Positions 23,004 to 48,404 of a DNA stretch of 48,404 nucleotides are shown here, in pieces. The position numbers and the translations under genes are program-made. The stretch's first letter is position 1; every line of letters begins with the position of its first letter. The notes under the pieces are model-generated. The model searched no databases, had not been told where the DNA came from, and was given only the letters and a program-made list of their open reading frames with translations. Source of the DNA: Phycisphaerae bacterium (lineage in GTDB: Bacteria > Planctomycetota > Phycisphaerae > SM23-33); NCBI GenBank assembly GCA_016931655.1, contig JAFGEJ010000209.1, positions 1 through 48,404 on the forward strand. Direction: 5' to 3'.

Positions 23004-24926
23004 CTACATCTGTTCCAGAACATCGATGCCCAGCAATTCCAGCCCTTTTTGGATCACGCGGGCGGCCAATTTGCACAGGGCGACCCTGCCGGCGCGGATG
23101 TCGCCCTCGGACTTTAACACGGGGCAGGTTTCGTAGAAACCCATAAACGCGCCGGCCAGGTCGTACAGGTACGCGCAGAGGATGTTGGGCAGGCACGTCT
23201 CCGCCACCGCTTCGATGGTTTCGGGGAATTGCAGCAATTTCACGCCCAGCGCCCGCTCGGCCGGTTCGACGACGTGAATTGTTCCGTTCATCGCCGAATC
23301 CCCGCCTTGACAGGCGGGGCTCATTTCGTCCTGCTTCCTGAAGATACTTTGAATGCGGGCGTAGGCGTACTGCATGTAGGGGGCGGTGTTACCGTCGAGG
23401 CTGAGCATTTTATCCCAGCTGAAGACGTAGTCGCTCGTGCGGTTCTGGGACAGGTCGGCGTACTTCAACGCACCGACGCCAATAGCTTTGTATGTTTTAT
23501 ATGATCTTGCTTGTGGATATACATCCTCCCTTTGATCCATTGCAATGCCTGCAGCATATTCGGCTTGGTCAATTAAGTCCATTAATTTGACGGTACCACC
23601 TTCGCGCGTCTTAAATGGTCTTCCATCTGTCCCCAGCATCATGCCGAAAGGTACGTGTTCGAGTTTTGTGGAAAGTTTATGTTCTCTGATGTTTGTTTTT
23701 CTTTTGATATGAAACAAGACAAGAAGAAAAGACAAAATATTAATTAATTTACCTATAATTAAACGTAACCAAGGAGTTGATTGATTGTGTCTAGCACGAT
23801 TGACAAAATCAGCCTTTTTGGCAACAGCGAACACCTGCGCAAAATGCTGCGCCTGACGCGAATCGGTCACGTAGAGAATTCTGTCGGCATGCAATTCCTG
23901 CACACGGTATCGAATCGCCGCCAGGTCCGTGGTGGCATATAAATATCCGCCGTCGGATTTCTGCACGATCATGAAGAATGGTTTATCATCCTGATTCTTA
24001 AATTCCTCCAAATATACACCCTTTGCACCATCACTTATTTTCAAAAGGCTCCTCTTTTCAAGATCTGCTACGACATTTGGCAAATCATCATTGTAGAAGC
24101 TTTCTCCGCGTACATCTTTGTCTGAAAGAAGAACGCCAAGTGCTTCATAAACCTTTTTACAATGACGAAGAGACTCTTTCCTGAATTTTTCCCATATCTC
24201 GAGGGTTTCTTTGTCACCGGATTGAAGGAGAACGACTCGTTTTCTCGCCTTTTCGGCAAATTCCGGGTCGGTGTCGTATTTTCTCTTCGCCATACGGTAC
24301 AGAAACTCCAAGTCATTAATTCGTAAGTCACTGTCTACTGTAACGACAACACCATCTGTATCTCGTTCACCTACGATTCCCCCCTTCTCTTTTCTCACAT
24401 ATAAAATGAATTCAACAAGCATCCCAAACTGTGTACCCCAGTCGCCGACGTGGTTTTGGGGGATGACGTTGTAGCCGATGAATTGCAGCGTTCGCGCCAG
24501 TGCATCACCGATGATCGTTGACCGCAGATGGCCGACGTGCATTTCCTTGGCGAGGTTCGGGCCGGAGTAGTCCACGATGACAGTTTCGGGATTCTTTGGT
24601 ATGGGAACGCAAAGATGTTTCTCATCCGCGAACATGGCTGCCAGCCGGCTGTCCAGCCAGTCGCGTTTCAGTGTGATATTGATAAATCCCGCACCGGCAA
24701 GTTCGACCTTTTCCGCCAGATCGGAGAGGTCGAGTTTTTCGACGACGGCCTCGGCGAACTTGCGGGGATTGGTCTTCATCTTTTTCGCGGCGGCCAGGCA
24801 GCCGTCGGCCTGGTAGTCGCCGAACTCGGGCCGGCTGGCGGGTTTGACCATCGCCGGCGCCTCGGCGGCGCCCGCGGCAGCCAGGGCGTCGGAAATTCGC
24901 CGCTCCAGTGTCGTTTTAATGTTCAT
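23004..24926 (-). CDS. argS: Arginine--tRNA ligase
   Basis: Class I signature (NLAKEMHVGHLRST), GDWGTQFGML, DGGYLYATTDLAAIRYR, FGMMLGTDGRPFKTREGGTVKL and the C-terminal anticodon-binding domain ending LGIDVLEQM are all present. The gene carries unusual AT-rich blocks and an extra insertion (see findings). Confidence 0.95.
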   Translation of the reverse strand: MNIKTTLERRISDALAAAGAAEAPAMVKPASRPEFGDYQADGCLAAAKKMKTNPRKFAEAVVEKLDLSDLAEKVELAGAGFINITLKRDWLDSRLAAMFADEKHLCVPIPKNPETVIVDYSGPNLAKEMHVGHLRSTIIGDALARTLQFIGYNVIPQNHVGDWGTQFGMLVEFILYVRKEKGGIVGERDTDGVVVTVDSDLRINDLEFLYRMAKRKYDTDPEFAEKARKRVVLLQSGDKETLEIWEKFRKESLRHCKKVYEALGVLLSDKDVRGESFYNDDLPNVVADLEKRSLLKISDGAKGVYLEEFKNQDDKPFFMIVQKSDGGYLYATTDLAAIRYRVQELHADRILYVTDSRQAQHFAQVFAVAKKADFVNRARHNQSTPWLRLIIGKLINILSFLLVLFHIKRKTNIREHKLSTKLEHVPFGMMLGTDGRPFKTREGGTVKLMDLIDQAEYAAGIAMDQREDVYPQARSYKTYKAIGVGALKYADLSQNRTSDYVFSWDKMLSLDGNTAPYMQYAYARIQSIFRKQDEMSPACQGGDSAMNGTIHVVEPAERALGVKLLQFPETIEAVAETCLPNILCAYLYDLAGAFMGFYETCPVLKSEGDIRAGRVALCKLAARVIQKGLELLGIDVLEQM

Positions 24927-24996
24927 CGTTTATCGCTTGTTACGGGAAAAAGAAAACACGAATCAGGATTAAGACCTCTGGGAAAAGGATTTTTTT

Positions 24997-25075
24997 ACCA
25001 CAGAGACACAGAGAGCACAGAGAAAAACATAATAAGAAATTATATCTTTCTCTGTGATCTCTGTGACTCTGTGGT
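24997..25075. repeat. 29-nt-arm hairpin built from CACAGAGA words, upstream of argS
   Basis: The left arm is accacagagacacagagagcacagagaaa (24997-25025). The right arm is tttctctgtgatctctgtgactctgtggt (25047-25075). 27 of 29 positions are complementary, with a 21-nt AT-rich loop. Confidence 0.8.
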
Positions 25076-25211
25076 AGGTTTTTCCGAATTCTCAATTTGC
25101 ATAGGGATAGCATGAATGATGATAATTTTCACGAGTTGTTTTTCGCTGGTTCTGTTGAAAACGGGAAAAAAACAAAACAGAGTATAAACCGTCATCCTTC
25201 CGGGGCAGGTT

Positions 25212-25396
25212 GTAGATCCCAATAGCCGCCCGTTTAGAAAGTCCTTCAACGTGGCTTGGGCCTCCGGCCCAAGTGTCGCAGGGTCATCCTGACCCTGCTT
25301 GTATTGTTATTTTCATGGGCGAGACGCCCATGAGACACTTGGACAAGATGTCCAAGCCACTTTCTAAACGGGCTGATAGGTCGTAGATCCCAATAG
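25212..25396. repeat. Highly structured element (candidate REP cluster, MITE or ncRNA) bounded by a 14-nt perfect direct repeat
   Basis: gtagatcccaatag occurs at 25212-25225 and 25383-25396. The closing stem pairs cccgtttagaaa (25229-25240) with tttctaaacggg (25361-25372). Several 7-9 bp GC-rich hairpins lie inside (see finding). Confidence 0.6.
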
Positions 25397-25563
25397 GGGG
25401 GCTTGGGGCACAAAGCCTGCCTGCCGGCAGGCGGGGTCACAAAAGAAAAAACGTGGAAAAGAGTCATTATGTTTTACTTTGAGGCGTGATACCATGTAAA
25501 CCATTCGTGGAATTCGTCTTGCCCGTCGCCCAGGGATTTATGTTCTCGTATGCAGGAGATGCG

Positions 25564-26106
25564 ATGATGAGCAAAAAGAGTCCATCCGACAACCGGCGCG
25601 TGGCGGTGTTCCCGGGCACGTTCGATCCGGTCACCAACGGGCATCTCGACGTGATTCAGCGCGGCGTGAAGCTGTTCGACGAACTGATCATCGCCGTGGG
25701 CGATAATCCCGAAAAACAGGCCATGCTGCCGCAACCCGAGCGCGTTGAACTTCTCCGCGAGGTCACCGCCGAGTTGCCTTCCGTTCGCGTGACGCCCTAC
25801 CAGGGGCTTACCGTGGACTTCGCGCGGTCCGTCGGCGCCACAGCCATCCTGCGCGGCATCCGCAACAGCAGCGACCTGCAATTTGAATTTCAGACCGCCC
25901 TGACGAACCGCGTGGTGGCGGACGTGGAGACCGTGTTCATCATGACCAGCACGCAGTACGCCTTTACCTCCTCCAGCCTGATCCGCCAGGTGGCGGCGAT
26001 GGGCGGAGACGTTTCGGCCCTCGTGCCGGTGGAGGTGCTCCGGCATATCGAGAAGCATTGTCCCCGCGACGCGTCCTCGGACCGGAGCCTTCACGAATCG
26101 GAGTAA
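25564..26106 (+). CDS. coaD: Phosphopantetheine adenylyltransferase
   Basis: Shows AVFPGTFDPVTNGHLDVI, ILRGIR and SSSLIR motifs. The start was chosen at MMSKKS (ATG at 25564). Confidence 0.9.
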   Translation: MMSKKSPSDNRRVAVFPGTFDPVTNGHLDVIQRGVKLFDELIIAVGDNPEKQAMLPQPERVELLREVTAELPSVRVTPYQGLTVDFARSVGATAILRGIRNSSDLQFEFQTALTNRVVADVETVFIMTSTQYAFTSSSLIRQVAAMGGDVSALVPVEVLRHIEKHCPRDASSDRSLHESE

Positions 26107-26115
26107 TCGGCGCTG

Positions 26116-28305
26116 ATGTGGGAAAACGCGATGCAAGGCGCAAAACGATGGGCGATGCCGGCGGTGATTTTTTGGGCGGCGCTCGCGGCGGCGCAGCAGA
26201 ACGCCGTCCCGACGCCGGTGGTGGACATCCGCCGGCAAATGCAGCCGTTCGTTCGCCAGGCGGTTTTCGCGGAGAGTCCCCTGGCCGCCGAACACGCCGC
26301 GGGCGTGCTGCGGGACGCCCACGCCGCGTATCTTTCCGTTCTGACCCGATGCGGAACCCGCCGGGACGCGGAGGTGCGCACCCGTGCGAAGGACGTGCTG
26401 GACCGGGCCGTCCTGGCGGCGCGCCTTCGGCGCATCGAGGCGATACTGTCCGAAGACCTGGCGAAAAAGTTCGCCGCGTTTCGTCGCAGGTACCCCCAAC
26501 AGACAGCCGATATCTTCAGCCGGGATCTCCAGCAACAAGTGGAGGTTCTCAAACACATCGAGGAACAAAAGGATCCTCAAGGCCTGGCCGAGCCGATCCT
26601 TGTGATCTGTCTGAAGCATCCCTCGGAGGAGTTGCGGGCCTGGGCCGCCACGGCCGGGGCAAAACGACACTACCGCAGCGACATGTTCGCCGACGCCCTG
26701 TGCGACGTGCTGGACCGGGAAATTTCGTTCCGCGGCGCCTCGGCGCCCTACATGGTGTACCTCGTCGAAGGAGCCGAAGACGATCCGCCGAACGTTTTGC
26801 AGGTCGCCTTTGACGCTCTGCGGGTGATTCGTCCGCCGCGAGCGAGACAACGGCTGCTGGCAATTCTGGACAAACGACGAAACTATGAAATGGATCTTCG
26901 CCTGTGTTTGGCGGAAGCCATCGGCATGCTGCGCGACCCGACTCTGATTCCGCTGCTGCTGCGGCGCCTGCCCCGGCGTGCACGGGCAAATTACACTCGA
27001 TCCCTGGACGGCCGACGGGTTACCTTTGCCGTCGGTGACGACGCGCTGTTGGCGCTGCTGCGATTGACGCGCCAAAGCCCTTCCCAATACGACTTGATCC
27101 TCGAAACGGGCCAGCACGGAACCTTCCTGGGTTTTGCCGATAACTCCCAACGCGCCAAGGCCTATGAAAAGTTCAAGGCCTGGTGGGAAGCAAACCGAAA
27201 CCGAAAGGAATTTCAGGTTTCTCCCGCCGCCTCTCGTCCCGCTTCCGCGCCGGCGGAAAGTAAACCGTCGCCACCGGCGCCGTTCCCAACGCAACAGGAC
27301 GCGGAGCGATTGAAAAAAACCGTCGCAGCCGAGGCGCAACGATTGGCTCGCGGATTCACCGAGGAACATTACCGCCGTCGTGCCGCCGCGTCCGAGGAGC
27401 TGCTGGCGCTGCAGGATGCGATGCTGGCCGAAGTGCTCACCGGTGCTCGGACGGATCCGCCCGCGCAGCGTCGGGCTCGCCTGGGCCTGGCGGAGGACAT
27501 GCTGGTTTCCGCGCGGATCGAGCAATTTCTTCTCGATCGCTCGCCGGCGGATCGGCCGACCTTTCGCTCGCTCCGGGCGGATTATCCCCGGGCCTTTCGG
27601 GACTATTTCGGCCTGTCCTCCAGCCGGCGTCGCCAGGCCCTGGAATCGCTCACGAAGGATGACGCCACCGCCCGGACCGAGCCCCTTGTGCTGGATATGC
27701 TGCAAAATCTCGACGATGAAACGACGCCCATTGCGATTCAAGCGCTGGGAACGGGCTGGTATCGCTCGGGGCCGATCCAAAAACTGCTGGCCGGGCCGAT
27801 CAGCGATCGATATGTTCAAAAACTCAAACGGGAACATTGTTACTACGCGATGGGCGCAGCCAATCCCTATCAGCCTTGGATCAACGCCCTGGCGGCGGTG
27901 GGCGGCGAGGAATGCTTCGGCGTGCTGAGAAGCATCCTGGAAGATCAGGATTGGCAAATGCGGCAGCGATGCGGGGACGTTGTCAACGCCATTGCCGAAA
28001 GCAAGGATCCCCGGGCCGTCGACATGCTGCTGCCGCTTCTGGAGAAGACGGATATTCTCAACTCGATGCAGTTTTCGGATAAAAAGAAGATCACGCAGGC
28101 GACGTCGGATTACGCCCTGATGGCCCTGATTCGCGTAACGGGGCAGGATCCGAAGGGCTATCCTTTCTCCCACGCTCCGGGCCGACGGTTTGGGGGCGCC
28201 GATCTGTTCGGCTTTCCCGACGAGGCGACTCGAAAAAAGGCTATCGCCCAGTTCCGCGACTGGCAAGACGCGCAGAAAACGCCGACCACGAATACGGCAA
28301 AATGA
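26116..28305 (+). CDS. Secreted HEAT-repeat protein
   Basis: Has an N-terminal signal (MPAVIFWAALAAAQQ). PBS-lyase/HEAT-like repeats are present (LRVIRPPRARQRLLAILDK; MLRDPTLIPLLLRRL; SKDPRAVDMLLPLLEK). The start codon among 26116/26131 is uncertain. Confidence 0.6.
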   Translation: MWENAMQGAKRWAMPAVIFWAALAAAQQNAVPTPVVDIRRQMQPFVRQAVFAESPLAAEHAAGVLRDAHAAYLSVLTRCGTRRDAEVRTRAKDVLDRAVLAARLRRIEAILSEDLAKKFAAFRRRYPQQTADIFSRDLQQQVEVLKHIEEQKDPQGLAEPILVICLKHPSEELRAWAATAGAKRHYRSDMFADALCDVLDREISFRGASAPYMVYLVEGAEDDPPNVLQVAFDALRVIRPPRARQRLLAILDKRRNYEMDLRLCLAEAIGMLRDPTLIPLLLRRLPRRARANYTRSLDGRRVTFAVGDDALLALLRLTRQSPSQYDLILETGQHGTFLGFADNSQRAKAYEKFKAWWEANRNRKEFQVSPAASRPASAPAESKPSPPAPFPTQQDAERLKKTVAAEAQRLARGFTEEHYRRRAAASEELLALQDAMLAEVLTGARTDPPAQRRARLGLAEDMLVSARIEQFLLDRSPADRPTFRSLRADYPRAFRDYFGLSSSRRRQALESLTKDDATARTEPLVLDMLQNLDDETTPIAIQALGTGWYRSGPIQKLLAGPISDRYVQKLKREHCYYAMGAANPYQPWINALAAVGGEECFGVLRSILEDQDWQMRQRCGDVVNAIAESKDPRAVDMLLPLLEKTDILNSMQFSDKKKITQATSDYALMALIRVTGQDPKGYPFSHAPGRRFGGADLFGFPDEATRKKAIAQFRDWQDAQKTPTTNTAK

Positions 28306-28361
28306 TATGGTTTTTTCCCCTGTCGTGATTACAATAAAGGTTGTCAATACGGAGTGTAACG

Positions 28362-38713: not shown

Positions 38714-39853
38714 TTACACCAAACCGCCGCGAATATGTCGGTGTTTTCGTCGCTCTTCCCAGAGGATCGTCACCGCTCCGAGCGCCAGAAGCATCGCCGT
38801 CGTCGGTTCGGGAGTTTGCTTACTGTACGTAACCGCTCCCCTCGATCCGATCGACACACCGCCGGCGGCCTGGATCGTCCCCAGAAACGCCAGGTCATCC
38901 CCGGTGTTGACGTCGCCGCCCCAGGCGCGAATTTGGGCGGCCAAATCCACGTTGTTGCCCAGATTTACGTTGTCCTCGAACACGTTAACGGCGAATTGCC
39001 CCTCGCCGAGGACGTTGAACGTCACGTCGTTGCCGACGCTGAAACTCTTGTGAACGTTGAGCACAACGTCGCCCGCCGTGGCGTCGACGTTGACGGTCCC
39101 CTGGTTGCCAACCCAGAAATCCCGCAGCGTGTACGTACCGGAGGACAGATTCAGCTGCGTTTTGGTTCCCCACATATCCACGTCTTTGTAGTCTCCCGCC
39201 GAAAGATCCATGACGGCCTTGTTGCCGCCGTAGATATTTTGGCTGCCGTAGGAATGAACATCCGGCGCGGGGCCCATCGAATCCAGGCTCACCGTGTCGT
39301 AGGCCGCGTACGACGGATCGGTCGAACCGCCGATGGTGACCTTTTTCCCGGTGCTGAGTTTGCCTTGCAGGCCCGGGCTTGCATCGCCGGACACCTGGCC
39401 GTAGTTTCCGATCCAGATATCGTCGTTTCCGTTCAGGTTGCCCGTGATGACGGCTTTGGTGTTCAGTTCCAGATTGCCCGCCCCGGCGATAATGTCGCCC
39501 GTGACGTTCGCTCCGCTATCCATGTACACGCTTTTGCCCGTCCAGCTGGGGCCGGTGAATTCCAGATTTTTGGACGCTTCGGCGGCGAGGTTTGCCAGCA
39601 CGCGCCCATTGACCTTGTTGTCCTTGCTCAGCCAGATGAGATTTTCCGTGTACAGACCCTTCAACTGGGTTCCCGAACCGGTGGTAATCGAGCCGACGGC
39701 GGCGATATCCGCATTGACGACAGACCCCGACCCCAGCCAAAGATCCTTTCCGGCGTAAATGGCCAGGGAGCTCATATCGGGCGTAATTACAGCGGCCGAA
39801 GCCGCCGAAACCAGCGCGCAAAGCACTGAAATTGTTAATTTTATGTTTTTCAT
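38714..39853 (-). CDS. PEP-CTERM-anchored secreted protein with a repetitive Gly/Asn/Val-rich (beta-helix-like) body
   Basis: The signal peptide is MKNIKLTISVLCALVSAASA. The body has repeats of the type GSGSVVNADIAAVGSITTG and NVTGDIIAGAGNLEL. The C-terminus is TPEPTTAMLLALGAVTILWEERRKHR. A strong SD (GGAGGGAGGAG) precedes the ATG. Confidence 0.75.
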   Translation of the reverse strand: MKNIKLTISVLCALVSAASAAVITPDMSSLAIYAGKDLWLGSGSVVNADIAAVGSITTGSGTQLKGLYTENLIWLSKDNKVNGRVLANLAAEASKNLEFTGPSWTGKSVYMDSGANVTGDIIAGAGNLELNTKAVITGNLNGNDDIWIGNYGQVSGDASPGLQGKLSTGKKVTIGGSTDPSYAAYDTVSLDSMGPAPDVHSYGSQNIYGGNKAVMDLSAGDYKDVDMWGTKTQLNLSSGTYTLRDFWVGNQGTVNVDATAGDVVLNVHKSFSVGNDVTFNVLGEGQFAVNVFEDNVNLGNNVDLAAQIRAWGGDVNTGDDLAFLGTIQAAGGVSIGSRGAVTYSKQTPEPTTAMLLALGAVTILWEERRKHRHIRGGLV

Positions 39854-40161: not shown

Positions 40162-41322
40162 CTACTTATCGAAATGTGCAATGGACAGAAGGCCTCGCTT
40201 TACCTCGTCGATGGACGCGGCGAAGGTAATTCGAATCCAGTGATCGCAACTGTCCCCATAGGAAACGCCCGGAACGACGGCTGTCTGTTTCCGTTCCAGC
40301 AGTTCCAGGGCAAAATCCGTTGACGTTTTGCCGAACGGTTCGATATTGACAAGGAAATAAAATGCACCCTGCGGTTTGTGATATTTCAATTGCAGCGAAT
40401 CCATATAGTCCACGATTTCATGGAACCGCTCCGTATATCTTTGCGACATTTCCCGCGAAGCCGCCATGACGGCTGGGTTCGTCAGGGCCTCTCGCCCCGC
40501 TAATTGTACGCTGGGATTCACGTTGGTAATAGAGCACTGACTGATTGGCACAACGGCGTCGATCCATTCCGCCGAGGCCATGATTACCCCCAGGCGCAAA
40601 CCCGGCATGGCGAATCGTTTTGAAAAACTGTCGATGCGAATGGTCCGGTTACGCATCGCGGGCAGTGACGCAATGGAAACGTATTCGTCGTCCGTGTGCA
40701 GAATGGTTCGATACACCTCGTCGCTGAGAACCAGCAGATCGTTTTCGACGGCCAGTTTGGCGATCTGTTCCAGTCGCGGCCGATTCAGTACCGCACCGCT
40801 TGGATTGCACGGAGAATTCAGAATCAGGAGTCGCGTTCGTTTCGTGACGGCCTTGCGAAGGTCTTCGACGTCCGGCTGAAAGTCGTTGGCGGCGCGGCAG
40901 GCGACCCGCACGGGCACGCCTCCGGCCAGCAGCACGCCGGCGGCGTATTGCGGCCAGCTCGGGTCCAGCAGCACGACTTCGTCGCCGGGGGAAAGCAGCG
41001 CCTGTAAGCCGCAGAACACCGCGTGGCTGCCGCCGTTGGTTATGAGAACCTCGCTGCCGGGATCGAAATCGACGTTCAGTTCCGCCCGGGCGTTTTCCGC
41101 CAGCGCCTCCCGCAGTGCGGGAAGGCCTCGTGTGTTTCCGTAGTGCGTCCATCCATCGGCCATGGCCTTGTGGCAGGCCGTCACTATTTCCGCGGGGACG
41201 GCGAAATCCGGATCCCCCGTTTGCAGGGCGACGACCTCGCAGCCGTCGGCCTGCAACGCGCGCACCCGATCCGCAATTTCCAACGACGCCGGCGTCGTTA
41301 ATAGGGACAGACGGGGATTCAT
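40162..41322 (-). CDS. Pyridoxal-phosphate-dependent aminotransferase, class I/II (aspartate aminotransferase-like)
   Basis: Shows GDPDF, GY.NTRGLP..REA and the SFSKRFAMPGLRLG PLP-lysine motif. The start overlaps the upstream stop (41319-41322). Confidence 0.9.
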   Translation of the reverse strand: MNPRLSLLTTPASLEIADRVRALQADGCEVVALQTGDPDFAVPAEIVTACHKAMADGWTHYGNTRGLPALREALAENARAELNVDFDPGSEVLITNGGSHAVFCGLQALLSPGDEVVLLDPSWPQYAAGVLLAGGVPVRVACRAANDFQPDVEDLRKAVTKRTRLLILNSPCNPSGAVLNRPRLEQIAKLAVENDLLVLSDEVYRTILHTDDEYVSIASLPAMRNRTIRIDSFSKRFAMPGLRLGVIMASAEWIDAVVPISQCSITNVNPSVQLAGREALTNPAVMAASREMSQRYTERFHEIVDYMDSLQLKYHKPQGAFYFLVNIEPFGKTSTDFALELLERKQTAVVPGVSYGDSCDHWIRITFAASIDEVKRGLLSIAHFDK

Positions 41323-42014
41323 TCGCGCACTTCTTCAATGGGTAACGAACGGAATTTCTCACGGAGGCCGATCGCGTCCATCGTGCTCTGCCCGGCGGTA
41401 ATTTTCTGCAGCCACGTCGCTTCCAGGTCGGCCCGCCGTTGCGCGATCGGCAAGATCGTCTCGACGAGTTGGTTCGGGATGACCACGACCCCGTTCTCGT
41501 CGGCGGCAACCAGGTCGCCCGGCGAGACCACCACGCCTCCGACCGCGACGGGCGTATTGATATTGCCCCCCCATCCCTTCAGGGGTCCCCCCTGGGCCGT
41601 CCCCAGGGCGAACAGGGGAACGCCGAGTTCGCGCATGGCCTCAAGGTCACGGACCATGCCGTTGACGACCACGCCGGCAACGCTCCGATTCTTTGCCGCC
41701 AACATCTGCAAACCGCCCCAGCAGGAACGGCTGGCGGCCCCTTTGGCGTCGATGACCAGCACGTCGCCCGGCGAGAGCATTTCCAGGGCGATATGGCTCA
41801 TGGTGTTTCCACCCTCGGCGTCTTCCACGGTAAAGGCCCGGCCGGCAAAGCGGGCGTGAGGCAAAAGCGAACGTATCGAGCCGTTCATCGCTCCCAGGCG
41901 GTTCATCGCGTCGGAAAACAGGGAGGCGGAAATGGATTTCGCCTTCTCAAGAAGGGTTTCGTCAAGGGGGGGACGATGATGGATCACGCGTCCCGGAAAA
42001 AGTAATTCTGACAT
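41319..42014 (-). CDS. RraA family protein (class II aldolase / oxaloacetate decarboxylase-like)
   Basis: Contains FAGRAFTV, GDVLVIDAKG, CWGGLQMLAAKNRSVAGVVVNGMVRD and GDLVAADENGVVVIP, which is the RraA/HMG-CHA aldolase pattern. Confidence 0.8.
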   Translation of the reverse strand: MSELLFPGRVIHHRPPLDETLLEKAKSISASLFSDAMNRLGAMNGSIRSLLPHARFAGRAFTVEDAEGGNTMSHIALEMLSPGDVLVIDAKGAASRSCWGGLQMLAAKNRSVAGVVVNGMVRDLEAMRELGVPLFALGTAQGGPLKGWGGNINTPVAVGGVVVSPGDLVAADENGVVVIPNQLVETILPIAQRRADLEATWLQKITAGQSTMDAIGLREKFRSLPIEEVRE

Positions 42015-43024
42015 CAGGATTCCTTTCCCGGCCTGGTTTGGGAATCAAACCGACCTTGGCAAATAATTTCCCGTCCGTCCACGCGAACCGTGGGCCGGAG
42101 CAATACATGGTCCAGATGAAACGGCACGACAATCGCCCCGCCGAGGGCGGCATTGGCGCCGATGCCGATATGCACCGTGCCGGCGACGCCTTCATCTTCC
42201 AGCATATTTCCACAAAGACGGGCGTTGGGATTCAGCCCGATCCCGATTTCCGCTATTGTATAGGCCAGCGGCGAGTCCGTGCCAGCGAAGATTTCTTCGA
42301 GCACCCTCGCCTGTTTGCCCTCCATGCGTTTTACAAGCCCCCCCCGCACGTGCAGCGTTATCGGCGAGTCCAGAACGCCCAGCCGGGGATGCGGAATGCT
42401 CCCGTCAACGACAATCACGCCTTCGGAGAACTCTTCCCGCGGCGGGATGTTCGTTTCCGCGTCGGGCGGGGATGCGATCATGCCCCCCTTGTAGCAACAC
42501 CCCGGGGCGGGGGTGGCGCAACGTCCCTCGATGCGGCAGCGCAATTGCGTCCCCGCCGGCGTCCGGATTTCGAGATCGGTCCCCCGCGATAGCGTCTCCG
42601 CCAGAGCCTGCGAGGGGGCAATGAGCGATTGAAAATCCGTCCGCATGGCCGGCCGAGACAGCACGTTCCAGTCATATTGCGGCAGGGACAGGTAGCTTCC
42701 ATTTCGGCCGATCAGTTCCCGCACGGCCCGGCTGTGCGCCAGCGACATGATCGACAGCCCGAACACCACGTCGGCCTGCTCCATGTTCCGCCGCACGTCT
42801 TCCGGAGGTTCCACGCCGTGATGGAGCAAGGGGGGCGTTTCCGCCAGAATCGACTCGGCTCCGAGGGAAAGGCAACGCTGATGAATCCGCTCCGCCAGTT
42901 CTCGCGTAGCCGATTCGTAAATGACGCATACCCGCTGGGCCGCCTTCAGCCCGGCGCAACGACACACCAGCGTTTCAATCCCTTTCTCGGCGTCGGATCG
43001 ATGACGCGACGAATCGGGGGTCAT
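42014..43024 (-). CDS. Peptidase M29 (aminopeptidase T / NicX)-like protein
   Basis: The C-terminal half follows the M29 pattern (GTDLEIRT...EEFSEGVIVVDGS...IAEIGIGLNP...LEDEGVAGTVHIGIG...FHLDHVLL..TVRVDG). At 336 aa it is shorter than classical AmpS. Confidence 0.65.
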   Translation of the reverse strand: MTPDSSRHRSDAEKGIETLVCRCAGLKAAQRVCVIYESATRELAERIHQRCLSLGAESILAETPPLLHHGVEPPEDVRRNMEQADVVFGLSIMSLAHSRAVRELIGRNGSYLSLPQYDWNVLSRPAMRTDFQSLIAPSQALAETLSRGTDLEIRTPAGTQLRCRIEGRCATPAPGCCYKGGMIASPPDAETNIPPREEFSEGVIVVDGSIPHPRLGVLDSPITLHVRGGLVKRMEGKQARVLEEIFAGTDSPLAYTIAEIGIGLNPNARLCGNMLEDEGVAGTVHIGIGANAALGGAIVVPFHLDHVLLRPTVRVDGREIICQGRFDSQTRPGKES

Positions 43025-44094
43025 CGCTGCTCGTCTCCGAAATAATTCCAGAGGCTGAACTGGGAGAAAGGAATCCGAGGCGGTTTGTCCTTGAGCTTTT
43101 TGGCGACTTTTTCCACCAGCGCGTCCGGAGCGTTCACCTTGTCGAACTGCGTGACCGCCATGATCAGCATTCGCGGGTCAATGTTATACTGGCTGGCGAA
43201 CTTGCGAATCACGCCGGTGTAGCTGGAGTGGAACTGGGACATGCCGGAAATCACGTCGATGGAGGAAATGCCGCGCTTTTGCACCAGCGGGCGAATGAAC
43301 TGTTCCGCAACGTCAGAAACGTCAATCGGATCGATTCCGATATTGAAGGAACGGCGCTGCAGCAGCGCGACGACCATCTCTGTTGGCGCGTTTCCCCCGC
43401 CCCGGCCCAATCCCTGCAGGGACGTGTCTATCACTTCGGCGCCGAGATCGATCGCGCGAAGCGAATGCGAGACGGCCATCCCCAGATTATTATGGCCGTG
43501 GAAGCCGAGGCGAAGCTGGCAGATGTCCCGCGTGGCACAGAAATAATGTTCAATGTCTTCCGGCAGCATGCCCCCGGCGGAGTCCACAATGCCCAACAGG
43601 TCCACGCCGTAGGATTCCGCCAGTTTGGCCCGCTGGGCGAAAATCTTCGGCCCCAGAACGTAGGATTTCATCAGGTTGGCCGTGACGTACATGCCGTGAT
43701 GCTTCGCCCGTTCCACGAAGGGGGCGGCGTTCTCCACTTCCGTCACGTTGGTGCCGATGCGGATAAAGTCCATTTTGTACTTCGCCGCCAGGTCGATGTC
43801 CTCCAGTCTCGCGATGCCCGGAATGCAGAACATACCGAACGACGACGTGGTAATGGTCTCCGCGGCGGCGGCCAGATACGCCTCATCCGTTTCCGCGGCC
43901 TGGCCGTATCCGCAATTGGAAGCGTTCAGGCCCACGCCGTGGCCGATTTCAATCATTTTGAAGCCGGCCTTTTCCAACGCCGAACAGATTTCCCGCGTGT
44001 CCTTGACGGTAAACCCGAAATTATTGGTATAACTGCCGTCCCGCAGCGTGCATTCCAGAACGAGAATGCCGGTGGGTGGAACTCTATGGGTCAT
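43021..44094 (-). CDS. DmpG/HMGL-like aldolase (4-hydroxy-2-oxovalerate aldolase family)
   Basis: Shows ECTLRDGSY, IEIGHGVGLNASNCGYG, DSAGGMLP and FHGHNNLGMAV motifs. It has a C-terminal DmpG-type communication domain length. Confidence 0.8.
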   Translation of the reverse strand: MTHRVPPTGILVLECTLRDGSYTNNFGFTVKDTREICSALEKAGFKMIEIGHGVGLNASNCGYGQAAETDEAYLAAAAETITTSSFGMFCIPGIARLEDIDLAAKYKMDFIRIGTNVTEVENAAPFVERAKHHGMYVTANLMKSYVLGPKIFAQRAKLAESYGVDLLGIVDSAGGMLPEDIEHYFCATRDICQLRLGFHGHNNLGMAVSHSLRAIDLGAEVIDTSLQGLGRGGGNAPTEMVVALLQRRSFNIGIDPIDVSDVAEQFIRPLVQKRGISSIDVISGMSQFHSSYTGVIRKFASQYNIDPRMLIMAVTQFDKVNAPDALVEKVAKKLKDKPPRIPFSQFSLWNYFGDEQR

Positions 44095-45211
44095 TTGGGT
44101 TTTCCTTTACGTCGTGGCCGGAGGAAACGACGGGGTCCATGGCCCGCGAAATCGCCGGCCACAAGTATTCGACCAGAAGCGGATACCCCTCTGCCGAAAC
44201 GTGAACATGATCAATATATTCCTTTTGCGGAATCGACGTACAACCGGGCAAATACACCCGCCGCGGTCCTTCATAGGTTGCGACCAACGCCCTCAGGTCC
44301 TCTTTCAGAGCATTATACTCCTTCTCCGGCAGAAGGTAAGAACGTTTTTCCGGCGCTTCCTGTGCATAGAACAGGACCAGGGGAACCTCCCGGCGTTGAC
44401 AGAGCTTGAGAAAACATTCCAGCGCTTTGACCTGGGGATGCTCCGGGTTCAACGTGATGGAGCGAAACCGTTTTCGCGCCTTGATCAGAAGCAGCAGATC
44501 GGCGTCCGTCTGCATTTGTCTCGGCGCATGTTCGTACTCTTCCAAACGCCTCTTGATCGCTTCACTCGGCCGGCCGTCAAAGAAAACCTGGTGCAACCAA
44601 TCCCGAAACGCATAGGTCTTCCAGACGCGGGAAGCGATGCGCTGAAGACGGCTGTTTATCCACTGGTTCACGCCCGTCGGAGTCATTTCAAACGAAGGCT
44701 CCTCAAGCCACGGCCTGCTTCGCTGGTCCTCCGGCGGAATGAAGTCGGCGGAAAAATCCCGCAACCCGATATCCATGACAATCAGGGACGGCTTCTCCGC
44801 GACGACCCGTTCGCCAAGGGACGCAATGTCCGTCGGCAAGGCCCCGTTCATGCCCAGGTTCATGACTTTGACGTTTCGGCCGGGGTACGCCAAGCGAATC
44901 TTCGCCTCCAGAAGCGCATCCAGCGTTCTGCTGCGCCAATCGGAAGGCCGGTATTTCTGTAAAACCTTCCCCAGAATCAGGGAATCCCCCAGCAGCACGA
45001 CGGTCTCGCCGTCATGGCGTTTCAACGCGTCCAGCTTGAGTTCCACCATGCCCGGCAGAAGAATCTCCTCGGGCGCAAACCAATCCACCGAGGAAATCGC
45101 ACAACGGGTAACCCCTTCCAGCCCGGCCAGGATCAGCAGTACGCATACCGCCGTTAGCGGCAGGCTATGCGAAATTCTTGTCCCCAGGTGTGTGGTATTG
45201 CCCTTCTCCAT
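44084..45211 (-). CDS. N-terminally membrane-anchored SGNH-type hydrolase/acyltransferase, DltD-like
   Basis: Has a single TM (LPLTAVCVLLILAGL), the GDS(L) block VVLLGDSLILG, GMNG, and a C-terminal DHVHVS (DxxH) block. It lies directly after the MBOAT and the micropeptide. Confidence 0.6.
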   Translation of the reverse strand: MEKGNTTHLGTRISHSLPLTAVCVLLILAGLEGVTRCAISSVDWFAPEEILLPGMVELKLDALKRHDGETVVLLGDSLILGKVLQKYRPSDWRSRTLDALLEAKIRLAYPGRNVKVMNLGMNGALPTDIASLGERVVAEKPSLIVMDIGLRDFSADFIPPEDQRSRPWLEEPSFEMTPTGVNQWINSRLQRIASRVWKTYAFRDWLHQVFFDGRPSEAIKRRLEEYEHAPRQMQTDADLLLLIKARKRFRSITLNPEHPQVKALECFLKLCQRREVPLVLFYAQEAPEKRSYLLPEKEYNALKEDLRALVATYEGPRRVYLPGCTSIPQKEYIDHVHVSAEGYPLLVEYLWPAISRAMDPVVSSGHDVKENPNDP

Positions 45212-45277: not shown

Positions 45278-45403
45278 TTAAAAATTCTGATAGATGAAGG
45301 ACGTTTGACCCTGATAGATAAAATGAATAATGATCCACAGTTTCAGAACGAGAAACAGCAGCGACAGAAAAACACGCAGGTTTTCCGGGATTGCCTTTTT
45401 CAT
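45278..45403 (-). CDS. 41-aa DltX-like membrane micropeptide with a C-terminal FIYQNF motif
   Basis: Hand translation gives MKKAIPENLRVFLSLLFLVLKLWIIIHFIYQGQTSFIYQNF*. The ATG overlaps the MBOAT stop (ATGA at 45400-45403). The peptide is hidden at the end of a 172-aa shadow ORF in the track. Confidence 0.6.
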   Translation of the reverse strand: MKKAIPENLRVFLSLLFLVLKLWIIIHFIYQGQTSFIYQNF

Positions 45404-46638: not shown

Positions 46639-46884
46639 CTACGCCAATTCCGGCTTTTTTTTCTGAATCAGGGCCTTGAGGTCCCCGACGCACTGAAGAC
46701 GCGCGATTTCAGAATTCCGAAAGGAAATACCAAAGTGTCTTTCCACTTCCACGATCATGTTGATGTGAGAGAGGGAATCCCATGCCTCCACGTCGTCGGC
46801 GTCCATGTCGTCAGTAATTACCAGATTGGGATTGCGGAAGATGGTTCGGAAAATCGTCTGTACGTCGTCGTGTATCATTGCCAT
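46639..46884 (-). CDS. Acyl/aminoacyl carrier protein (phosphopantetheine-binding, DltC-like)
   Basis: About 80 aa and acidic, with DDVEAWDSLSHINMIVEVERHFGI containing the DSL serine attachment motif. The start is at 46884 or 46878; the track extension to 46944 overlaps the upstream gene. Confidence 0.8.
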   Translation of the reverse strand: MAMIHDDVQTIFRTIFRNPNLVITDDMDADDVEAWDSLSHINMIVEVERHFGISFRNSEIARLQCVGDLKALIQKKKPELA

Positions 46885-46910
46885 TCCTCTGGATATTTCC
46901 TGTCCGATTT

Positions 46911-48203
46911 TCATGAGGCGGCCTGCAATTCCCAGAACCACCATTGGGGGAACTGCTCCATAAAGGCGTAGGCCCGCGGCGAGATGGTTTTATAGTCCGG
47001 ATGGATCGGCGGTTCGAGAATCCGCACGATTCGATAGCCGTTTTCACACATCAAATTCGTCATTTCCTCCAGAGTCGGAACCACCTTGAAATGTCGATGC
47101 CGGTATTCGGTCAGGATCCCCACGGGATGGGTTTCCCCTCCGATCCAGGGCGTCAGCCAGAAAGGGTGCGGGTCCATAATCAGCAGCCGGCCGTCCGGTT
47201 TGAGCAGCTTTTTTATGTTCTGCATCACCCGGCCGCGATTCTCCACCAGTTGCGGCTGGTACGACGGATCGAACAGAAACAGAAACGTGTCGATCAGGAT
47301 CACGCGATCAAATTGGCGGTTGTGTATGTTGCCCGACCCCTTGGAAAGATCAAGGATGTCGCCAACCTCAAAGGCAAGGTTGGAATTCTCTTCGGGAGGA
47401 TACAGGTCTCTGGCCTGTGCGATGTAGTCGGGGTTGTAGTCCATTCCAACCGCGCTGCGCGCATGGCAGGCCATCTTCCGCGTGAAATATCCCGTGCCGC
47501 TTCCGATTTCGAGCACGTCCAGATTGGAAAAATTCTCCGCGAAATAGGCGTCGAGAAACGTTTCCTCAATATAACGATACGGCGTCTGGCGAATCGATCG
47601 GCCGTCGTCGGCAAACTTCTGCTTCGTCCACCATTCCGTCGGAACCACGCGATGATACAGGGCTTCGGTTCCGATCTGCTCGAAAAACGTGCCGCGAAAC
47701 CGGTCGCCGAAGGATCGTTTTTCATAGTCGAACGGCTCCTCCGGCTGGGACTCGATGAAGTGATGTTCGCGGAGCAGGTCGATCAACTCTGCCGGGCCCG
47801 GCTCGAACCACCGCCGGTCCTTCGGCTCTGCCAGGAAATCGGAATTCCGAACCGTCGAGGCCCATAGGGTGAAGTCCGTCGCGTCACAGATCGACAAAGG
47901 CTTCGAGGAAAGCCACTCCGCGAGGACCGACTCTGTGCATCCCTCCTCGGCCAGCAGCAGATCCGACAGTTCCGCCAAGCGCCACGGGCCCAGGATATTG
48001 CGACGATAGTTCGGCTGAAACAGGCGACACAGGCCCCCTCCTTCAGGCAAAATGATCGTATTACGGTTCCAGTACCAGGTTGTCGACGATGTATCGCTCA
48101 TTCGACTCGTTTGTCCGGGTTCAGGCCGGTTTTCATCAGAAGAAACAGTAAAAAACCAAATAAAGTAAGGGCGTATCATACTCCGGGCCGGCGGAGAATT
48201 CAC
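46911..48203 (-). CDS. Class I SAM-dependent methyltransferase with an uncharacterised N-terminal domain of about 200 aa
   Basis: Motif I is VLEIGSGTGYFT, followed by GMDYN, FDRVILID and LLKPDGRLLI. An alternative start at MSDTSS (48101) is possible. Confidence 0.75.
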   Translation of the reverse strand: MNSPPARSMIRPYFIWFFTVSSDENRPEPGQTSRMSDTSSTTWYWNRNTIILPEGGGLCRLFQPNYRRNILGPWRLAELSDLLLAEEGCTESVLAEWLSSKPLSICDATDFTLWASTVRNSDFLAEPKDRRWFEPGPAELIDLLREHHFIESQPEEPFDYEKRSFGDRFRGTFFEQIGTEALYHRVVPTEWWTKQKFADDGRSIRQTPYRYIEETFLDAYFAENFSNLDVLEIGSGTGYFTRKMACHARSAVGMDYNPDYIAQARDLYPPEENSNLAFEVGDILDLSKGSGNIHNRQFDRVILIDTFLFLFDPSYQPQLVENRGRVMQNIKKLLKPDGRLLIMDPHPFWLTPWIGGETHPVGILTEYRHRHFKVVPTLEEMTNLMCENGYRIVRILEPPIHPDYKTISPRAYAFMEQFPQWWFWELQAAS

Positions 48204-48404
48204 ACGGAAAAACCGTCTTATACTGATTCAACAAATTAGGTGCCGATTATTCTGTCTGTCTGCATTGATCCAAAATAAAAACGAATATCACTCTTTGGGA
48301 GTAGCCACGGGCGCAAACCCTCACCTTTACCCACATCGTAAAAATACGAATCCATTATGAAAGACGGCTATAAAGAAATCCGGTATTTTGCTTTTTCGCC
48401 TGAA

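What the first reader, a model, noticed from the sequence alone, without database searches (positions are those of the whole stretch)
40162..44094. Four translationally coupled enzymes (DmpG-like aldolase, M29-like, RraA-like, aminotransferase) that could build a non-standard amino acid for the relay
DmpG-family enzymes join or split pyruvate and an aldehyde. RraA-family members include HMG/CHA aldolases and oxaloacetate decarboxylases. A class I/II aminotransferase would convert the resulting 4-hydroxy-2-oxo acid to a gamma-hydroxy amino acid. The M29 fold also hosts non-peptidase chemistry such as NicX. There is no DmpF-type dehydrogenase partner and no catabolic context. The genes sit directly downstream of a carrier-protein acylation machine. 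A biosynthetic role is therefore plausible but is pure inference, for example making a hydroxylated or branched amino acid that is then loaded and exported.
Basis: inference. Interest (0 to 1): 0.65.

Follow-up and report, generated by a model that had tools for sequence, protein, structure and literature searches.

The report
Acyl-group factory feeding a Dlt-like relay
Four overlapping genes in an uncultured planctomycete (two pyruvate-aldolase-type enzymes, a peptidase-fold metalloenzyme and an aminotransferase) belong to a widespread but uncharacterised gene cassette that most likely makes an unusual amino acid, which a teichoic-acid-style carrier-protein relay encoded next to them then attaches to the cell surface.

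Summary
Four minus-strand genes lie exactly at 40162-44094, with start/stop overlaps of 4, 1 and 4 nt. They encode a DmpG-like aldolase, an M29/NicX-fold metalloprotein, an RraA-like protein and a class I aminotransferase. Directly upstream lie a methyltransferase, a carrier protein, a DltB-like MBOAT, a 41-aa DltX-like microprotein ending in FIYQNF, and a DltD-like SGNH protein.

Comparative genomics rules out a catabolic cassette:
- In 29 of 29 informative genomes from roughly 20 lineages, the NicX-like gene sits next to an acyl-AMP ligase, usually with a carrier protein and the aminotransferase.
- Natural fusions exist: aldolase+NicX-like, NicX-like+ligase, ligase+aminotransferase+NicX-like, and ligase+RraA.
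- The aldolase clade (≥550 metagenome loci) is normally followed by ligase and carrier genes in glycan loci.
- Where ligase and carrier are absent, aldolase+aminotransferase+RraA pair with an ATP-grasp L-amino-acid ligase.

The biosynthetic reading is therefore well supported. The product is still inferred, and a γ-hydroxy amino acid is only one option. The ligase gene is missing from the window because the contig ends in a repeat. The M29-like enzyme keeps all five M29 metal ligands, so it is probably not a NicX-type dioxygenase. I found no paper describing the cassette. I rate it a new variant of a known kind.

The parts
43021..44094 (-). DmpG-like class II pyruvate aldolase, short form (357 aa). 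It belongs to a cassette-specific clade with RDGSY (DmpG His21 to Tyr), the HGH metal ligands, GLGRxxGN (an extra Arg) and HSS (DmpG Tyr291 to His).
   Evidence: DmpG 1nvm 167 bits; 8ih7 170 bits. Signature residues. Homologs at 55-64% identity.
42014..43024 (-). M29/NicX-fold metalloenzyme (336 aa). E190, E259, H285, H303 and D305 are invariant and map to the five M29 metal ligands.
   Evidence: Family size is 1160 representatives at E<=1e-30.
41319..42014 (-). RraA-like protein (231 aa), closest to HMG/CHA aldolase/oxaloacetate decarboxylase. It keeps Arg123-Asp124 (VRD) but not Asp102.
   Evidence: (3noj 110 bits).
40162..41322 (-). Class I (AspAT/ArAT-like) PLP aminotransferase (386 aa), with the SfSK lysine and the carboxylate-binding Arg present.
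   Evidence: 1dju 258 bits.
44084..45211 (-). DltD-like membrane-anchored SGNH/GDSL protein (375 aa), with an N-terminal TM helix and GDS and DxxH motifs.
   Evidence: (Lipase_GDSL 2.8e-6), the sequence, and homologs beside the MBOAT in L017, L024 and L027.
45278..45403 (-). DltX-like microprotein (41 aa) with one TM helix and a C-terminal FIYQNF (the FxYxxF acyl-shuttle motif). Its ATG overlaps the MBOAT stop codon.
   Evidence: The motif is defined in PMC12148441.
45400..46626 (-). DltB-like MBOAT (408 aa), with the WERWH and AFWHG histidine motifs.
   Evidence: MBOAT 1.6e-14; TIGR04091 DltB 172.8 bits, below the equivalog cut-off of 375.
46639..46914 (-). Small carrier protein with a DSLSH phosphopantetheine-site motif. 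The likely start is the ATG that overlaps the methyltransferase stop codon.
   Evidence: (ACP models 31.8 bits, DltC 20.6 bits, all below cut-off), and homologs in L004, L017, L024, L027 and L035.
46911..48203 (-). 430-aa protein with a C-terminal class I SAM methyltransferase domain and a ~215-aa N-terminal region that matches no family. It is a conserved member of the cassette.
   Evidence: (L004 389 bits, L024 428 bits, L017 363 bits).
48263..48404 (.). Multi-copy repeat at the contig end, where the assembly breaks. It hides whatever lies upstream of the operon, including the expected acyl-AMP ligase gene.
   Evidence: depth 346.8 against 29.4, with many short branching contigs. One search shows no long open frame in the last 200 nt.

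Best explanation
The four genes are the acyl-group-building module of a nine- to ten-gene operon. This operon decorates an extracytoplasmic envelope polymer through a Dlt-type relay.

Inferred biosynthetic steps:
1. The RraA-like enzyme (a class II pyruvate aldolase or oxaloacetate decarboxylase type) and the DmpG-like aldolase assemble a 4-hydroxy-2-oxo acid from pyruvate or oxaloacetate and a small carbonyl partner. The extra active-site Arg of the aldolase clade hints at a carboxylated partner.
2. The M29/NicX-fold two-metal enzyme processes this intermediate. Candidate reactions are hydration or dehydration, lactone or lactam opening or closing, or decarboxylation. In sister cassettes this slot is filled by an Amidohydro_2 protein or a PF04199 'cyclase'.
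3. The aminotransferase converts the 2-oxo group to a 2-amino group.
4. The methyltransferase adds a methyl group, possibly masking the 4-OH or the amine.

Shown by comparison with relatives: an acyl-AMP ligase of the malonyl/oxalyl-CoA-synthetase type always accompanies the NicX-like gene. No such gene is present in the window. Its inferred role is to load the product onto the small carrier protein.

Inferred by analogy with Dlt: the MBOAT passes the group to the tyrosine of the DltX-like microprotein, then to the SGNH protein, then to an unknown surface glycan or glycoprotein.
For: - Anatomy and coupling.
- Enzyme families and active-site residues.
- Complete Dlt-like set, including the FxYxxF microprotein, conserved in L017, L024, L027 and L035 and fused to the MBOAT in L019.
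- Same gene set plus ligase in Planctomycetaceae locus L024, in the order AT-HMGL-NicXl-AMPb-RraA-MTase-ACP-MBOAT-(DltX)-SGNH.
- Ligase adjacent to the NicX-like gene in 29 of 29 informative loci, including the strict-anaerobe lineages Maridesulfovibrio, Thermodesulfobacteriota and Methanobacteriota.
- Fusions HMGL+NicXl, NicXl+AMPb, AMPb+AT+NicXl, AMPb+RraA and AMPb+AT.
- The aldolase clade is followed by ligase and carrier in nonulosonic-acid and other glycan loci.
- HMGL+AT+RraA occur with an ATP-grasp L-amino-acid ligase, which argues that the product is an amino acid.
Against: - No acyl-AMP ligase gene is in the window. The NicX-like gene here is flanked by the aldolase and RraA genes, unlike in every relative.
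- No enzyme was assayed, so the product, the order of steps and the role of the M29-like enzyme are all inference.
- The aldolase lacks DmpG's His21 and Tyr291 (they appear swapped). The RraA-like protein lacks Asp102 of HMG/CHA aldolase. Their reactions may therefore differ from the models.
- The aminotransferase is optional in many aldolase-ligase cassettes, so some relatives may attach a hydroxy or oxo acid instead.
- No transcript evidence was found (run X4).
- The acceptor polymer is unknown.
Confidence: 0.7

Rival explanations
1. The module makes a non-amino acyl group (a hydroxy, oxo or methoxy acid, possibly a dicarboxylate). The aminotransferase serves another purpose, for example aminating after loading, or acting on a sugar or a side branch.
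For: The partner ligases are closest to malonyl- and oxalyl-CoA synthetases and fatty-acyl ligases, not to amino-acid-adenylating enzymes. Many aldolase-ligase-carrier cassettes lack an aminotransferase. A known relative-by-context is the di-O-methylglyceroyl group on pseudaminic acid, which needs Cj1295 (PMC3068675).
Against: The aminotransferase is present in 24 of 31 NicX-centred loci and is often fused to the ligase. The carrier-less variant uses an L-amino-acid-ligase-type ATP-grasp enzyme. The window aminotransferase is a typical AspAT/ArAT-type enzyme, not a sugar (DegT) aminotransferase.
Confidence: 0.15
2. The four enzymes make an amino acid or metabolite that this carrier relay does not carry. 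The neighbourhood would be operonic convenience, and the relay would carry something else, such as D-alanine.
For: There is no ligase in the window to connect the two halves. Aldolase+AT+RraA can work with a different activating enzyme elsewhere.
Against: There is an 11-nt overlap between the SGNH gene and the aldolase gene. The same halves are joined in L017, L024, L027 and L035. The fusions to the ligase also argue against it. No alanine racemase or DltA-type gene is in the window.
Confidence: 0.08
3. An independent catabolic cassette, meta-cleavage-, protocatechuate-4,5- or nicotinate-like: DmpG, LigK and NicX homologs degrading an aromatic or N-heterocyclic compound.
For: The closest characterised relatives of three of the four proteins (DmpG, HMG/CHA aldolase, NicX) are catabolic.
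Against: There is no DmpF, ring-cleavage dioxygenase, hydratase, hydrolase or transporter of those pathways in the window. All equivalog cut-offs are missed. NicX His265 is replaced. The family occurs in strict anaerobes. Synteny and fusions with ligase and carrier are consistent, and the neighbourhoods are glycan loci.
Confidence: 0.03

Closest known systems
Dlt pathway (DltA, DltC, DltB, DltX, DltD) for D-alanylation of teichoic acids
   Same: Small carrier protein, DltB-like MBOAT, a microprotein ending in FxYxxF, and a membrane-anchored SGNH protein, in one operon. The expected mechanism is carrier to MBOAT to Tyr to Ser to polymer (PMC12148441).
   Different: The host is a planctomycete, a lineage not known to make teichoic acids (my own knowledge). 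The relatives' loading enzyme is acyl-CoA-synthetase-like, not DltA. The operon carries its own acyl-group biosynthesis (two aldolase-type enzymes, an M29-like enzyme, an aminotransferase and a methyltransferase). The DltB equivalog score is not reached (172.8 against 375).
DmpFG / BphIJ 4-hydroxy-2-oxovalerate aldolase-dehydrogenase complexes
   Same: TIM-barrel plus communication-domain architecture, the RD motif and the HxH metal ligands. About 167-170 bits to DmpG-type structures.
   Different: No DmpF partner. His21 is Tyr and Tyr291 is His. There is an extra Arg in GLGR. The context is biosynthetic, and a fusion to the NicX-like enzyme exists.
HMG/CHA aldolase (LigK/ProA, PDB 3noj), an RraA-fold class II pyruvate aldolase/oxaloacetate decarboxylase
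   Same: Best structural-sequence match (110 bits). Arg123-Asp124 are kept.
   Different: Below both equivalog cut-offs. Asp102 is not kept. The clade has its own motifs and is fused to an acyl-AMP ligase in some genomes.
NicX 2,5-dihydroxypyridine dioxygenase and the M29 aminopeptidases (AmpS, PepS, AmpT)
   Same: Same fold (TM 0.82 to NicX, 0.63-0.69 to the M29 peptidases). The HxD motif is shared with both.
   Different: It keeps all five M29 ligands, whereas NicX keeps three. It is about 80 residues shorter than the peptidases. It occurs in anaerobes and is always paired with an acyl-AMP ligase.
Carrier-protein-based side-chain pathways for sugar acylation: butirosin AHBA (BtrI/J/K/H/G), V. 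cholerae O1 tetronate (RfbK-O), V. cholerae AlmEFG, and the C. jejuni Cj1295 region (all but Cj1295 recalled from memory)
   Same: An acid is activated, tethered to a small carrier protein, tailored, then transferred to a sugar or lipid. The Cj1295-type aminopeptidase-like proteins (my memory equates them with the DUF4910/DUF2172 family) and AAC(3)-like proteins stand in sister cassettes.
   Different: None of these uses DmpG-like, RraA-like or M29-like enzymes. None combines such a pathway with a full DltB/X/D relay.
Nikkomycin NikA/NikB plus aminotransferase (recalled from memory)
   Same: A DmpG-type aldolase used in the synthetic direction, followed by transamination to give a 4-hydroxy amino acid.
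   Different: NikB has its DmpF-like partner NikA. The product enters a peptidyl nucleoside, not an envelope relay.

Membership tests
DmpG/BphI 4-hydroxy-2-oxovalerate aldolase | HMGL TIM barrel plus DmpG communication domain; subfamily model NF006049 | tested here: met
   291.4 bits against a cut-off of 229, over residues 10-337.
DmpG/BphI 4-hydroxy-2-oxovalerate aldolase | Equivalog model TIGR03217 | tested here: not met
   255.8 bits against a cut-off of 286.
DmpG/BphI 4-hydroxy-2-oxovalerate aldolase | Metal ligands Asp18, His200 and His202, and Arg17 | tested here: met
   TLRDG and FHGH align with DmpG.
DmpG/BphI 4-hydroxy-2-oxovalerate aldolase | Catalytic and channelling residues His21 and Tyr291 (their roles are recalled from the BphI literature) | tested here: not met
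   Tyr stands at the His21 position and His at the Tyr291 position. This holds in all 10 cassette-linked proteins and all 24 close homologs.
DmpG/BphI 4-hydroxy-2-oxovalerate aldolase | Adjacent acylating aldehyde dehydrogenase (DmpF/BphJ) | tested here: not met
   None in the window. None was noted beside the relatives.
HMG/CHA aldolase (LigK/ProA) | Equivalog models TIGR02798 and NF006731 | tested here: not met
   120.1 against 304.5, and 136.8 against 179.
HMG/CHA aldolase (LigK/ProA) | Arg123 and the metal ligand Asp124 | tested here: met
   VRD is conserved in the window protein and 12 cassette homologs.
HMG/CHA aldolase (LigK/ProA) | Asp102 (second-shell metal site; role recalled from memory) | tested here: not met
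   Gly in the window protein, variable in the clade.
RraA (RNase E regulator) | Equivalog models NF006875 and TIGR02998 | tested here: not met
   77.9 against 136, and 41.8 against 241.
NicX 2,5-dihydroxypyridine dioxygenase | Fold | tested here: met
   Foldseek E=2.3e-28, TM 0.82.
NicX 2,5-dihydroxypyridine dioxygenase | Mononuclear Fe(II) site His265/His318/Asp320 (numbering recalled from memory) | tested here: not met
   His265 aligns with the invariant Glu259. His318 and Asp320 align with H303 and D305.
NicX 2,5-dihydroxypyridine dioxygenase | Nicotinate-degradation gene context and O2 dependence | tested here: not met
   No nic genes are present. Family members occur in sulfate reducers and a methanogen-lineage MAG.
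M29 aminopeptidase (AmpS/PepS/AmpT) | Five ligands of the two-metal site (Glu, Glu, His, His, Asp) | tested here: met
   E190, E259 and H285 align with AmpS E253, E319 and H348. H303 and D305 form the HxD motif. All five are invariant in 29 sequences. The profile E-value to AmpS is only 0.098, but the fold match is E~1e-15.
M29 aminopeptidase (AmpS/PepS/AmpT) | Pfam PF02073 gathering score | tested here: not met
   The window protein has no hit. Homologs reach 25-39 bits against a cut-off of 27.
M29 aminopeptidase (AmpS/PepS/AmpT) | Peptidase activity | not testable with these tools
   Needs an enzyme assay.
Class I/II PLP aminotransferase | PF00155 domain, Schiff-base Lys and carboxylate-binding Arg | tested here: met
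   220 bits. SfSK and wiRitf align with 1dju. No NCBIfam equivalog cut-off is reached; the best are AspAT_arch at 325 against 550 and GntC at 290 against 415.
Dlt-type carrier-dependent MBOAT-SGNH acylation | Small carrier protein with a Ppant serine next to the MBOAT | tested here: met
   DSLSH motif. ACP and DltC models hit weakly.
Dlt-type carrier-dependent MBOAT-SGNH acylation | DltB equivalog TIGR04091 | tested here: not met
   172.8 against 375. It is nevertheless the only NCBIfam hit and covers residues 16-377.
Dlt-type carrier-dependent MBOAT-SGNH acylation | Membrane microprotein (or MBOAT tail) ending in the FxYxxF acyl-shuttle motif | tested here: met
   A 41-aa ORF ending in FIYQNF, conserved in four relatives and fused to the MBOAT in L019.
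Dlt-type carrier-dependent MBOAT-SGNH acylation | SGNH partner with a membrane anchor | tested here: met
   GDSL hit, GDS and DxxH motifs, and an N-terminal hydrophobic helix.
Dlt-type carrier-dependent MBOAT-SGNH acylation | DltA-type D-alanine-carrier ligase | tested here: not met
   No AMP-binding gene is in the window. The relatives' ligase is closest to malonyl- and oxalyl-CoA synthetases.

The most novel reading that the evidence does not exclude
This is a phylum-spanning, so far undescribed pathway family. In it, an M29/NicX-fold two-metal enzyme works obligatorily with an acyl-AMP ligase and a carrier protein, and pyruvate-aldolase-type enzymes plus an aminotransferase build a non-proteinogenic (possibly methylated, hydroxylated or branched) amino-acyl group for surface glycans. 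In planctomycetes the group would be delivered by a complete DltB/X/C/D-type relay. That would be the first Dlt-like system with its own cargo biosynthesis and a cargo other than D-alanine.
Probability: 0.5. Interest if true: 0.75.

Novelty: new variant of a known kind. Interest (0 to 1): 0.66.

Why it matters
Carrier-dependent MBOAT-SGNH acylation is understood mechanistically only for D-alanine on teichoic acids. This window and its relatives show the same relay, including the tyrosine-shuttle microprotein, in a planctomycete. Here it is joined to a dedicated supply line for an unusual acyl group.

The supply line is modular. Versions of it feed three different attachment systems:
- the Dlt-like relay;
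- AAC(3)-like/aminopeptidase-like transferases in nonulosonic-acid loci;
- ATP-grasp ligases.

It is also very common in environmental genomes. The NicX-like clade has 1160 representatives at 50% identity, and the aldolase clade has at least 550 metagenome loci.

Working out its product would do three things. It would assign function to three large 'misannotated catabolic' protein clades. It would give the M29/NicX fold a third kind of job. It would also predict new surface-glycan decorations relevant to phage and immune recognition.

Tried and rejected
- Pfam and NCBIfam gave nothing for the M29-like protein in our copies. Only PDB sequence search, the precomputed PF26233 tag and fold search placed it.
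- The ~215-aa N-terminal part of the methyltransferase matches no family, and only its methyltransferase domain matches any solved structure. The ~300-aa C-terminal extension of the long aldolases in relatives matches no Pfam family and has no counterpart in the window.
- The SGNH protein has only weak PDB matches to acetyl-xylan esterases, so it could not be tied to DltD by sequence.
- I looked for the missing ligase in every large ORF of the window and tried to see past the contig end. The end is a high-copy repeat with branching contigs, so this was a dead end.
- One metatranscriptome run from the same study (a different sample, S4) has no contig on the locus.
- Six literature searches found no description of the cassette: aldolase + carrier + MBOAT, Cj1295/Cj1307, DltB in Gram-negatives, aldolase + nonulosonic acids, DltX homologs, and aldolase + O-antigen/glycosylation island. 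The Vibrionaceae nab-cluster paper does not mention these genes.
- Rejected: catabolic meta-cleavage or nicotinate readings (see rivals).
- Rejected: NicX-type dioxygenase chemistry, on ligand pattern and presence in anaerobes.
- Rejected: an RNase E regulator role for the RraA-like protein, on its scores and its conserved aldolase dyad.
- Rejected: a GntC-type cyclodehydratase assignment for the aminotransferase (290 against 415 bits, lower than the AspAT model).
- The archaeal and Firmicute NicX-like hits of about 100-200 bits (L036-L084) have none of the partner genes. I treated them as a different subfamily.

Full report
**What is there**

Their junctions read ATGA, TGATG and ATGA, giving overlaps of 4, 1 and 4 nt. 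The first gene overlaps the preceding gene by 11 nt. Downstream of the aminotransferase stop codon there are about 300 nt of AT-rich spacer before a separate PEP-CTERM protein gene. The aminotransferase therefore ends the operon.

The rest of the 48.4-kb window is housekeeping: IF-2, NusA, ArgRS, Obg, CoaX, HisG and others. ArgRS is most similar to Phycisphaerae/Planctomycetota proteins at 63% identity. The DNA comes from a sediment metagenome.

**The four proteins**

1. Aldolase. It matches the DmpG subfamily model over its whole length (291 bits against a cut-off of 229). It misses the equivalog cut-off (256 against 286). It aligns with the DmpG-type structures 1nvm and 8ih7 at about 170 bits. 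The Arg-Asp and His-x-His metal-site residues are kept. DmpG His21 is Tyr and Tyr291 is His, and an Arg appears in the GxGR loop. These three changes hold in all ten cassette-linked homologs; the Tyr, the His and the loop Arg are also invariant in 24 close homologs.

2. M29/NicX-like protein. It has no hit in our Pfam or NCBIfam copies. It matches NicX (7cn3) at E=5.6e-9. A pLDDT-94.9 model matches NicX at TM 0.82 and the M29 peptidases at 0.63-0.69. In 29 homologs, E190, E259, H285, H303 and D305 are invariant. E190, E259 and H285 align with the AmpS metal ligands, and H303/D305 align with the HxD motif of NicX. NicX's third ligand, His265, is the invariant Glu259 here. The protein therefore has the peptidase-type two-metal site in a NicX-like compact body.

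3. RraA-like protein. It is closest to HMG/CHA aldolase/oxaloacetate decarboxylase (3noj, 110 bits) and keeps its Arg123-Asp124 dyad but not Asp102. It is below all equivalog cut-offs, including RraA itself.

4. Aminotransferase. It is an ordinary class I AspAT/ArAT-type enzyme, with the lysine and the carboxylate-binding arginine in place.

**The neighbours**

Upstream in the same operon lie five genes:
- a 430-aa methyltransferase-domain protein;
- a small carrier protein with a DSLSH motif;
- an MBOAT whose only NCBIfam hit is DltB;
- a 41-aa ORF ending in FIYQNF;
- a membrane-anchored SGNH protein.

The 41-aa ORF is hidden inside a longer mechanical ORF. Its ATG overlaps the MBOAT stop codon. 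It consists of one hydrophobic helix and ends in FIYQNF, which is the FxYxxF 'acyl shuttle' motif described for DltX (PMC12148441). The same microprotein follows the MBOAT in four relatives. In a fifth, the motif is fused to the MBOAT C-terminus.

This is therefore a DltC/B/X/D-type relay. What is missing is a loading enzyme: no AMP-binding gene exists anywhere in the window. The last 140 nt of the contig are a roughly 12-fold over-represented repeat with branching contigs. The assembly simply stops 200 nt upstream of the operon.

**Does the four-gene set belong to the relay?**

Starting from the NicX-like protein, a scan of one genome per species gave 80 loci. I searched their six-frame ORFs with the window proteins. 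I counted the 31 scan loci ranked highest by the scan's tblastn match to the NicX-like protein. They come from Elusimicrobia, Verrucomicrobiota, Planctomycetota, several proteobacterial classes, Bacteroidota, Latescibacteria, candidate-phyla bacteria, a Methanobacteriota MAG and others. Among them:
- 29 have an acyl-AMP ligase within 400 nt, and the other two are cut by contig ends;
- 25 have a small carrier protein;
- 24 have the aminotransferase.

Planctomycetaceae locus L024 carries AT, aldolase, NicX-like, ligase, RraA, methyltransferase, carrier, MBOAT, microprotein and SGNH. That is the window's set plus the ligase. Lower-scoring archaeal and Firmicute homologs have none of these partners and are a different subfamily.

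Starting from the aldolase, the window protein has many homologs at 55-64% identity. In 83 loci the usual order is aldolase, (aminotransferase), ligase, an unknown 275-aa protein, a PF04199 'cyclase', carrier, methyltransferase, an AAC(3)-like transferase and a DUF4910/DUF2172 aminopeptidase-like protein. These are often beside NeuB, CMP-sugar synthetase and other nonulosonic-acid genes.

A third layout has no ligase or carrier. It combines a long aldolase, the aminotransferase, RraA, an Amidohydro_2 protein, a methyltransferase and an ATP-grasp L-amino-acid ligase. In one case (L165) NeuB and a cytidylyltransferase lie in the same locus.

**Gene fusions**

Fusions make the link physical:
- aldolase+NicX-like (702 aa);
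- NicX-like+ligase (841 aa);
- ligase+aminotransferase+NicX-like (1224 aa);
- ligase+RraA (762-784 aa);
- ligase+aminotransferase (~930 aa).

The NicX-like clade has 1160 representatives at 50% identity with E<=1e-30.

**How it most likely works**

Shown:
- the gene set, its coupling and the conserved catalytic residues;
- the constant association with a ligase and carrier;
- the Dlt-type relay parts.

Inferred:
- The RraA-like and DmpG-like enzymes build a 4-hydroxy-2-oxo acid from pyruvate or oxaloacetate and a small carbonyl compound.
- The two-metal enzyme processes it. Its slot is taken by Amidohydro_2 or PF04199 hydrolase-type enzymes in sister cassettes, which points to hydration/dehydration, lactone/lactam chemistry or decarboxylation rather than oxygenation. 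The family also lives in strict anaerobes.
- The aminotransferase installs the amino group, and the methyltransferase adds a methyl.
- A ligase encoded elsewhere loads the carrier.
- MBOAT, then the microprotein Tyr, then SGNH transfer the group to an unknown surface polymer.

First, the partner ligases resemble malonyl- and oxalyl-CoA synthetases, not amino-acid adenylating enzymes. Second, from general chemistry, a free 4-hydroxyl next to an activated C1 carboxyl lactonises readily. Masking by methylation, removal of the hydroxyl, or activation of a distal carboxyl all seem more likely than a plain gamma-hydroxy aminoacyl thioester.

**Comparison and novelty**

The relay works like Dlt and meets its structural hallmarks: carrier, MBOAT, FxYxxF microprotein and SGNH. 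It fails the DltB equivalog score and has no DltA.

The three 'catabolic-looking' enzymes each fail at least one defining feature of DmpG, LigK or NicX, as listed in the membership table.

Conceptual precedents are carrier-tethered side-chain pathways: butirosin AHBA, V. cholerae tetronate, AlmEFG, and the poorly understood Cj1295 region of C. jejuni (PMC3068675). Another is the NikB-type use of a DmpG-like aldolase before transamination. Most of these are recalled from memory.

Six literature searches found no description of this cassette. I therefore rate it a new variant of a known kind, not a new category. Interest is moderately high because the module is very widespread and unassigned, and because it makes a non-D-Ala Dlt-type pathway directly testable.

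Noticed in passing
window 45278-45403 (-): An unannotatable-by-length 41-aa gene, MKKAIPENLRVFLSLLFLVLKLWIIIHFIYQGQTSFIYQNF, lies between the MBOAT and SGNH genes. It is a DltX-like acyl-shuttle microprotein whose ATG overlaps the MBOAT stop codon. An internal second copy of the motif (FIYQGQ) precedes the terminal FIYQNF.
   Followed up: yes
window 48263-48404: The contig ends in a sequence with about 12 times the depth of the rest (346.8 against 29.4) and many short branching contigs. It is a multi-copy repeat of unknown nature that broke the assembly just upstream of the operon.
   Followed up: partly
window 38714-39853 (-): The gene directly after the operon encodes a secreted 379-aa protein with a signal peptide, a weak DUF7305 match and a C-terminal PEP-CTERM-type sorting signal (TPEP, hydrophobic helix, basic tail). 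It could be a surface protein of the same envelope system or even an acceptor. This was not tested.
   Followed up: no
window 43021-44094 (-); L004, L008, L015, L019, L023-L025, L027, L035: The cassette aldolase clade has the DmpG catalytic pair apparently swapped (His21 to Tyr, Tyr291 to His) and gains an Arg in the GxGR loop. This is reminiscent of the GERxGN loop of isopropylmalate and homocitrate synthases.
   Followed up: partly
L024 7882-9996 and the long aldolases of L004, L015, L019, L023, L027, L035, L125-L167: Many relatives carry a ~300-aa C-terminal extension on the aldolase. It has no family match and no counterpart in the window. It is very divergent between lineages.
   Followed up: partly
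L085-L167 (for example L087 13528-15026): A sister cassette replaces the NicX-like enzyme with a PF04199 'cyclase' plus an unknown ~275-aa protein. Another replaces it with an Amidohydro_2 protein and swaps ligase+carrier for an ATP-grasp L-amino-acid ligase. Three unrelated metal-hydrolase folds thus appear to fill one pathway slot.
   Followed up: partly
window 47550-48203 (-): The first ~215 residues of the methyltransferase protein match no Pfam family or solved structure, yet they are conserved with the cassette (L004, L017, L024, L035).
   Followed up: partly
window 24001-26000 and 25474-28347 (-): G+C dips to 0.52 (window mean about 0.60) next to a 957-aa ORF that has no Pfam match.
   Followed up: no
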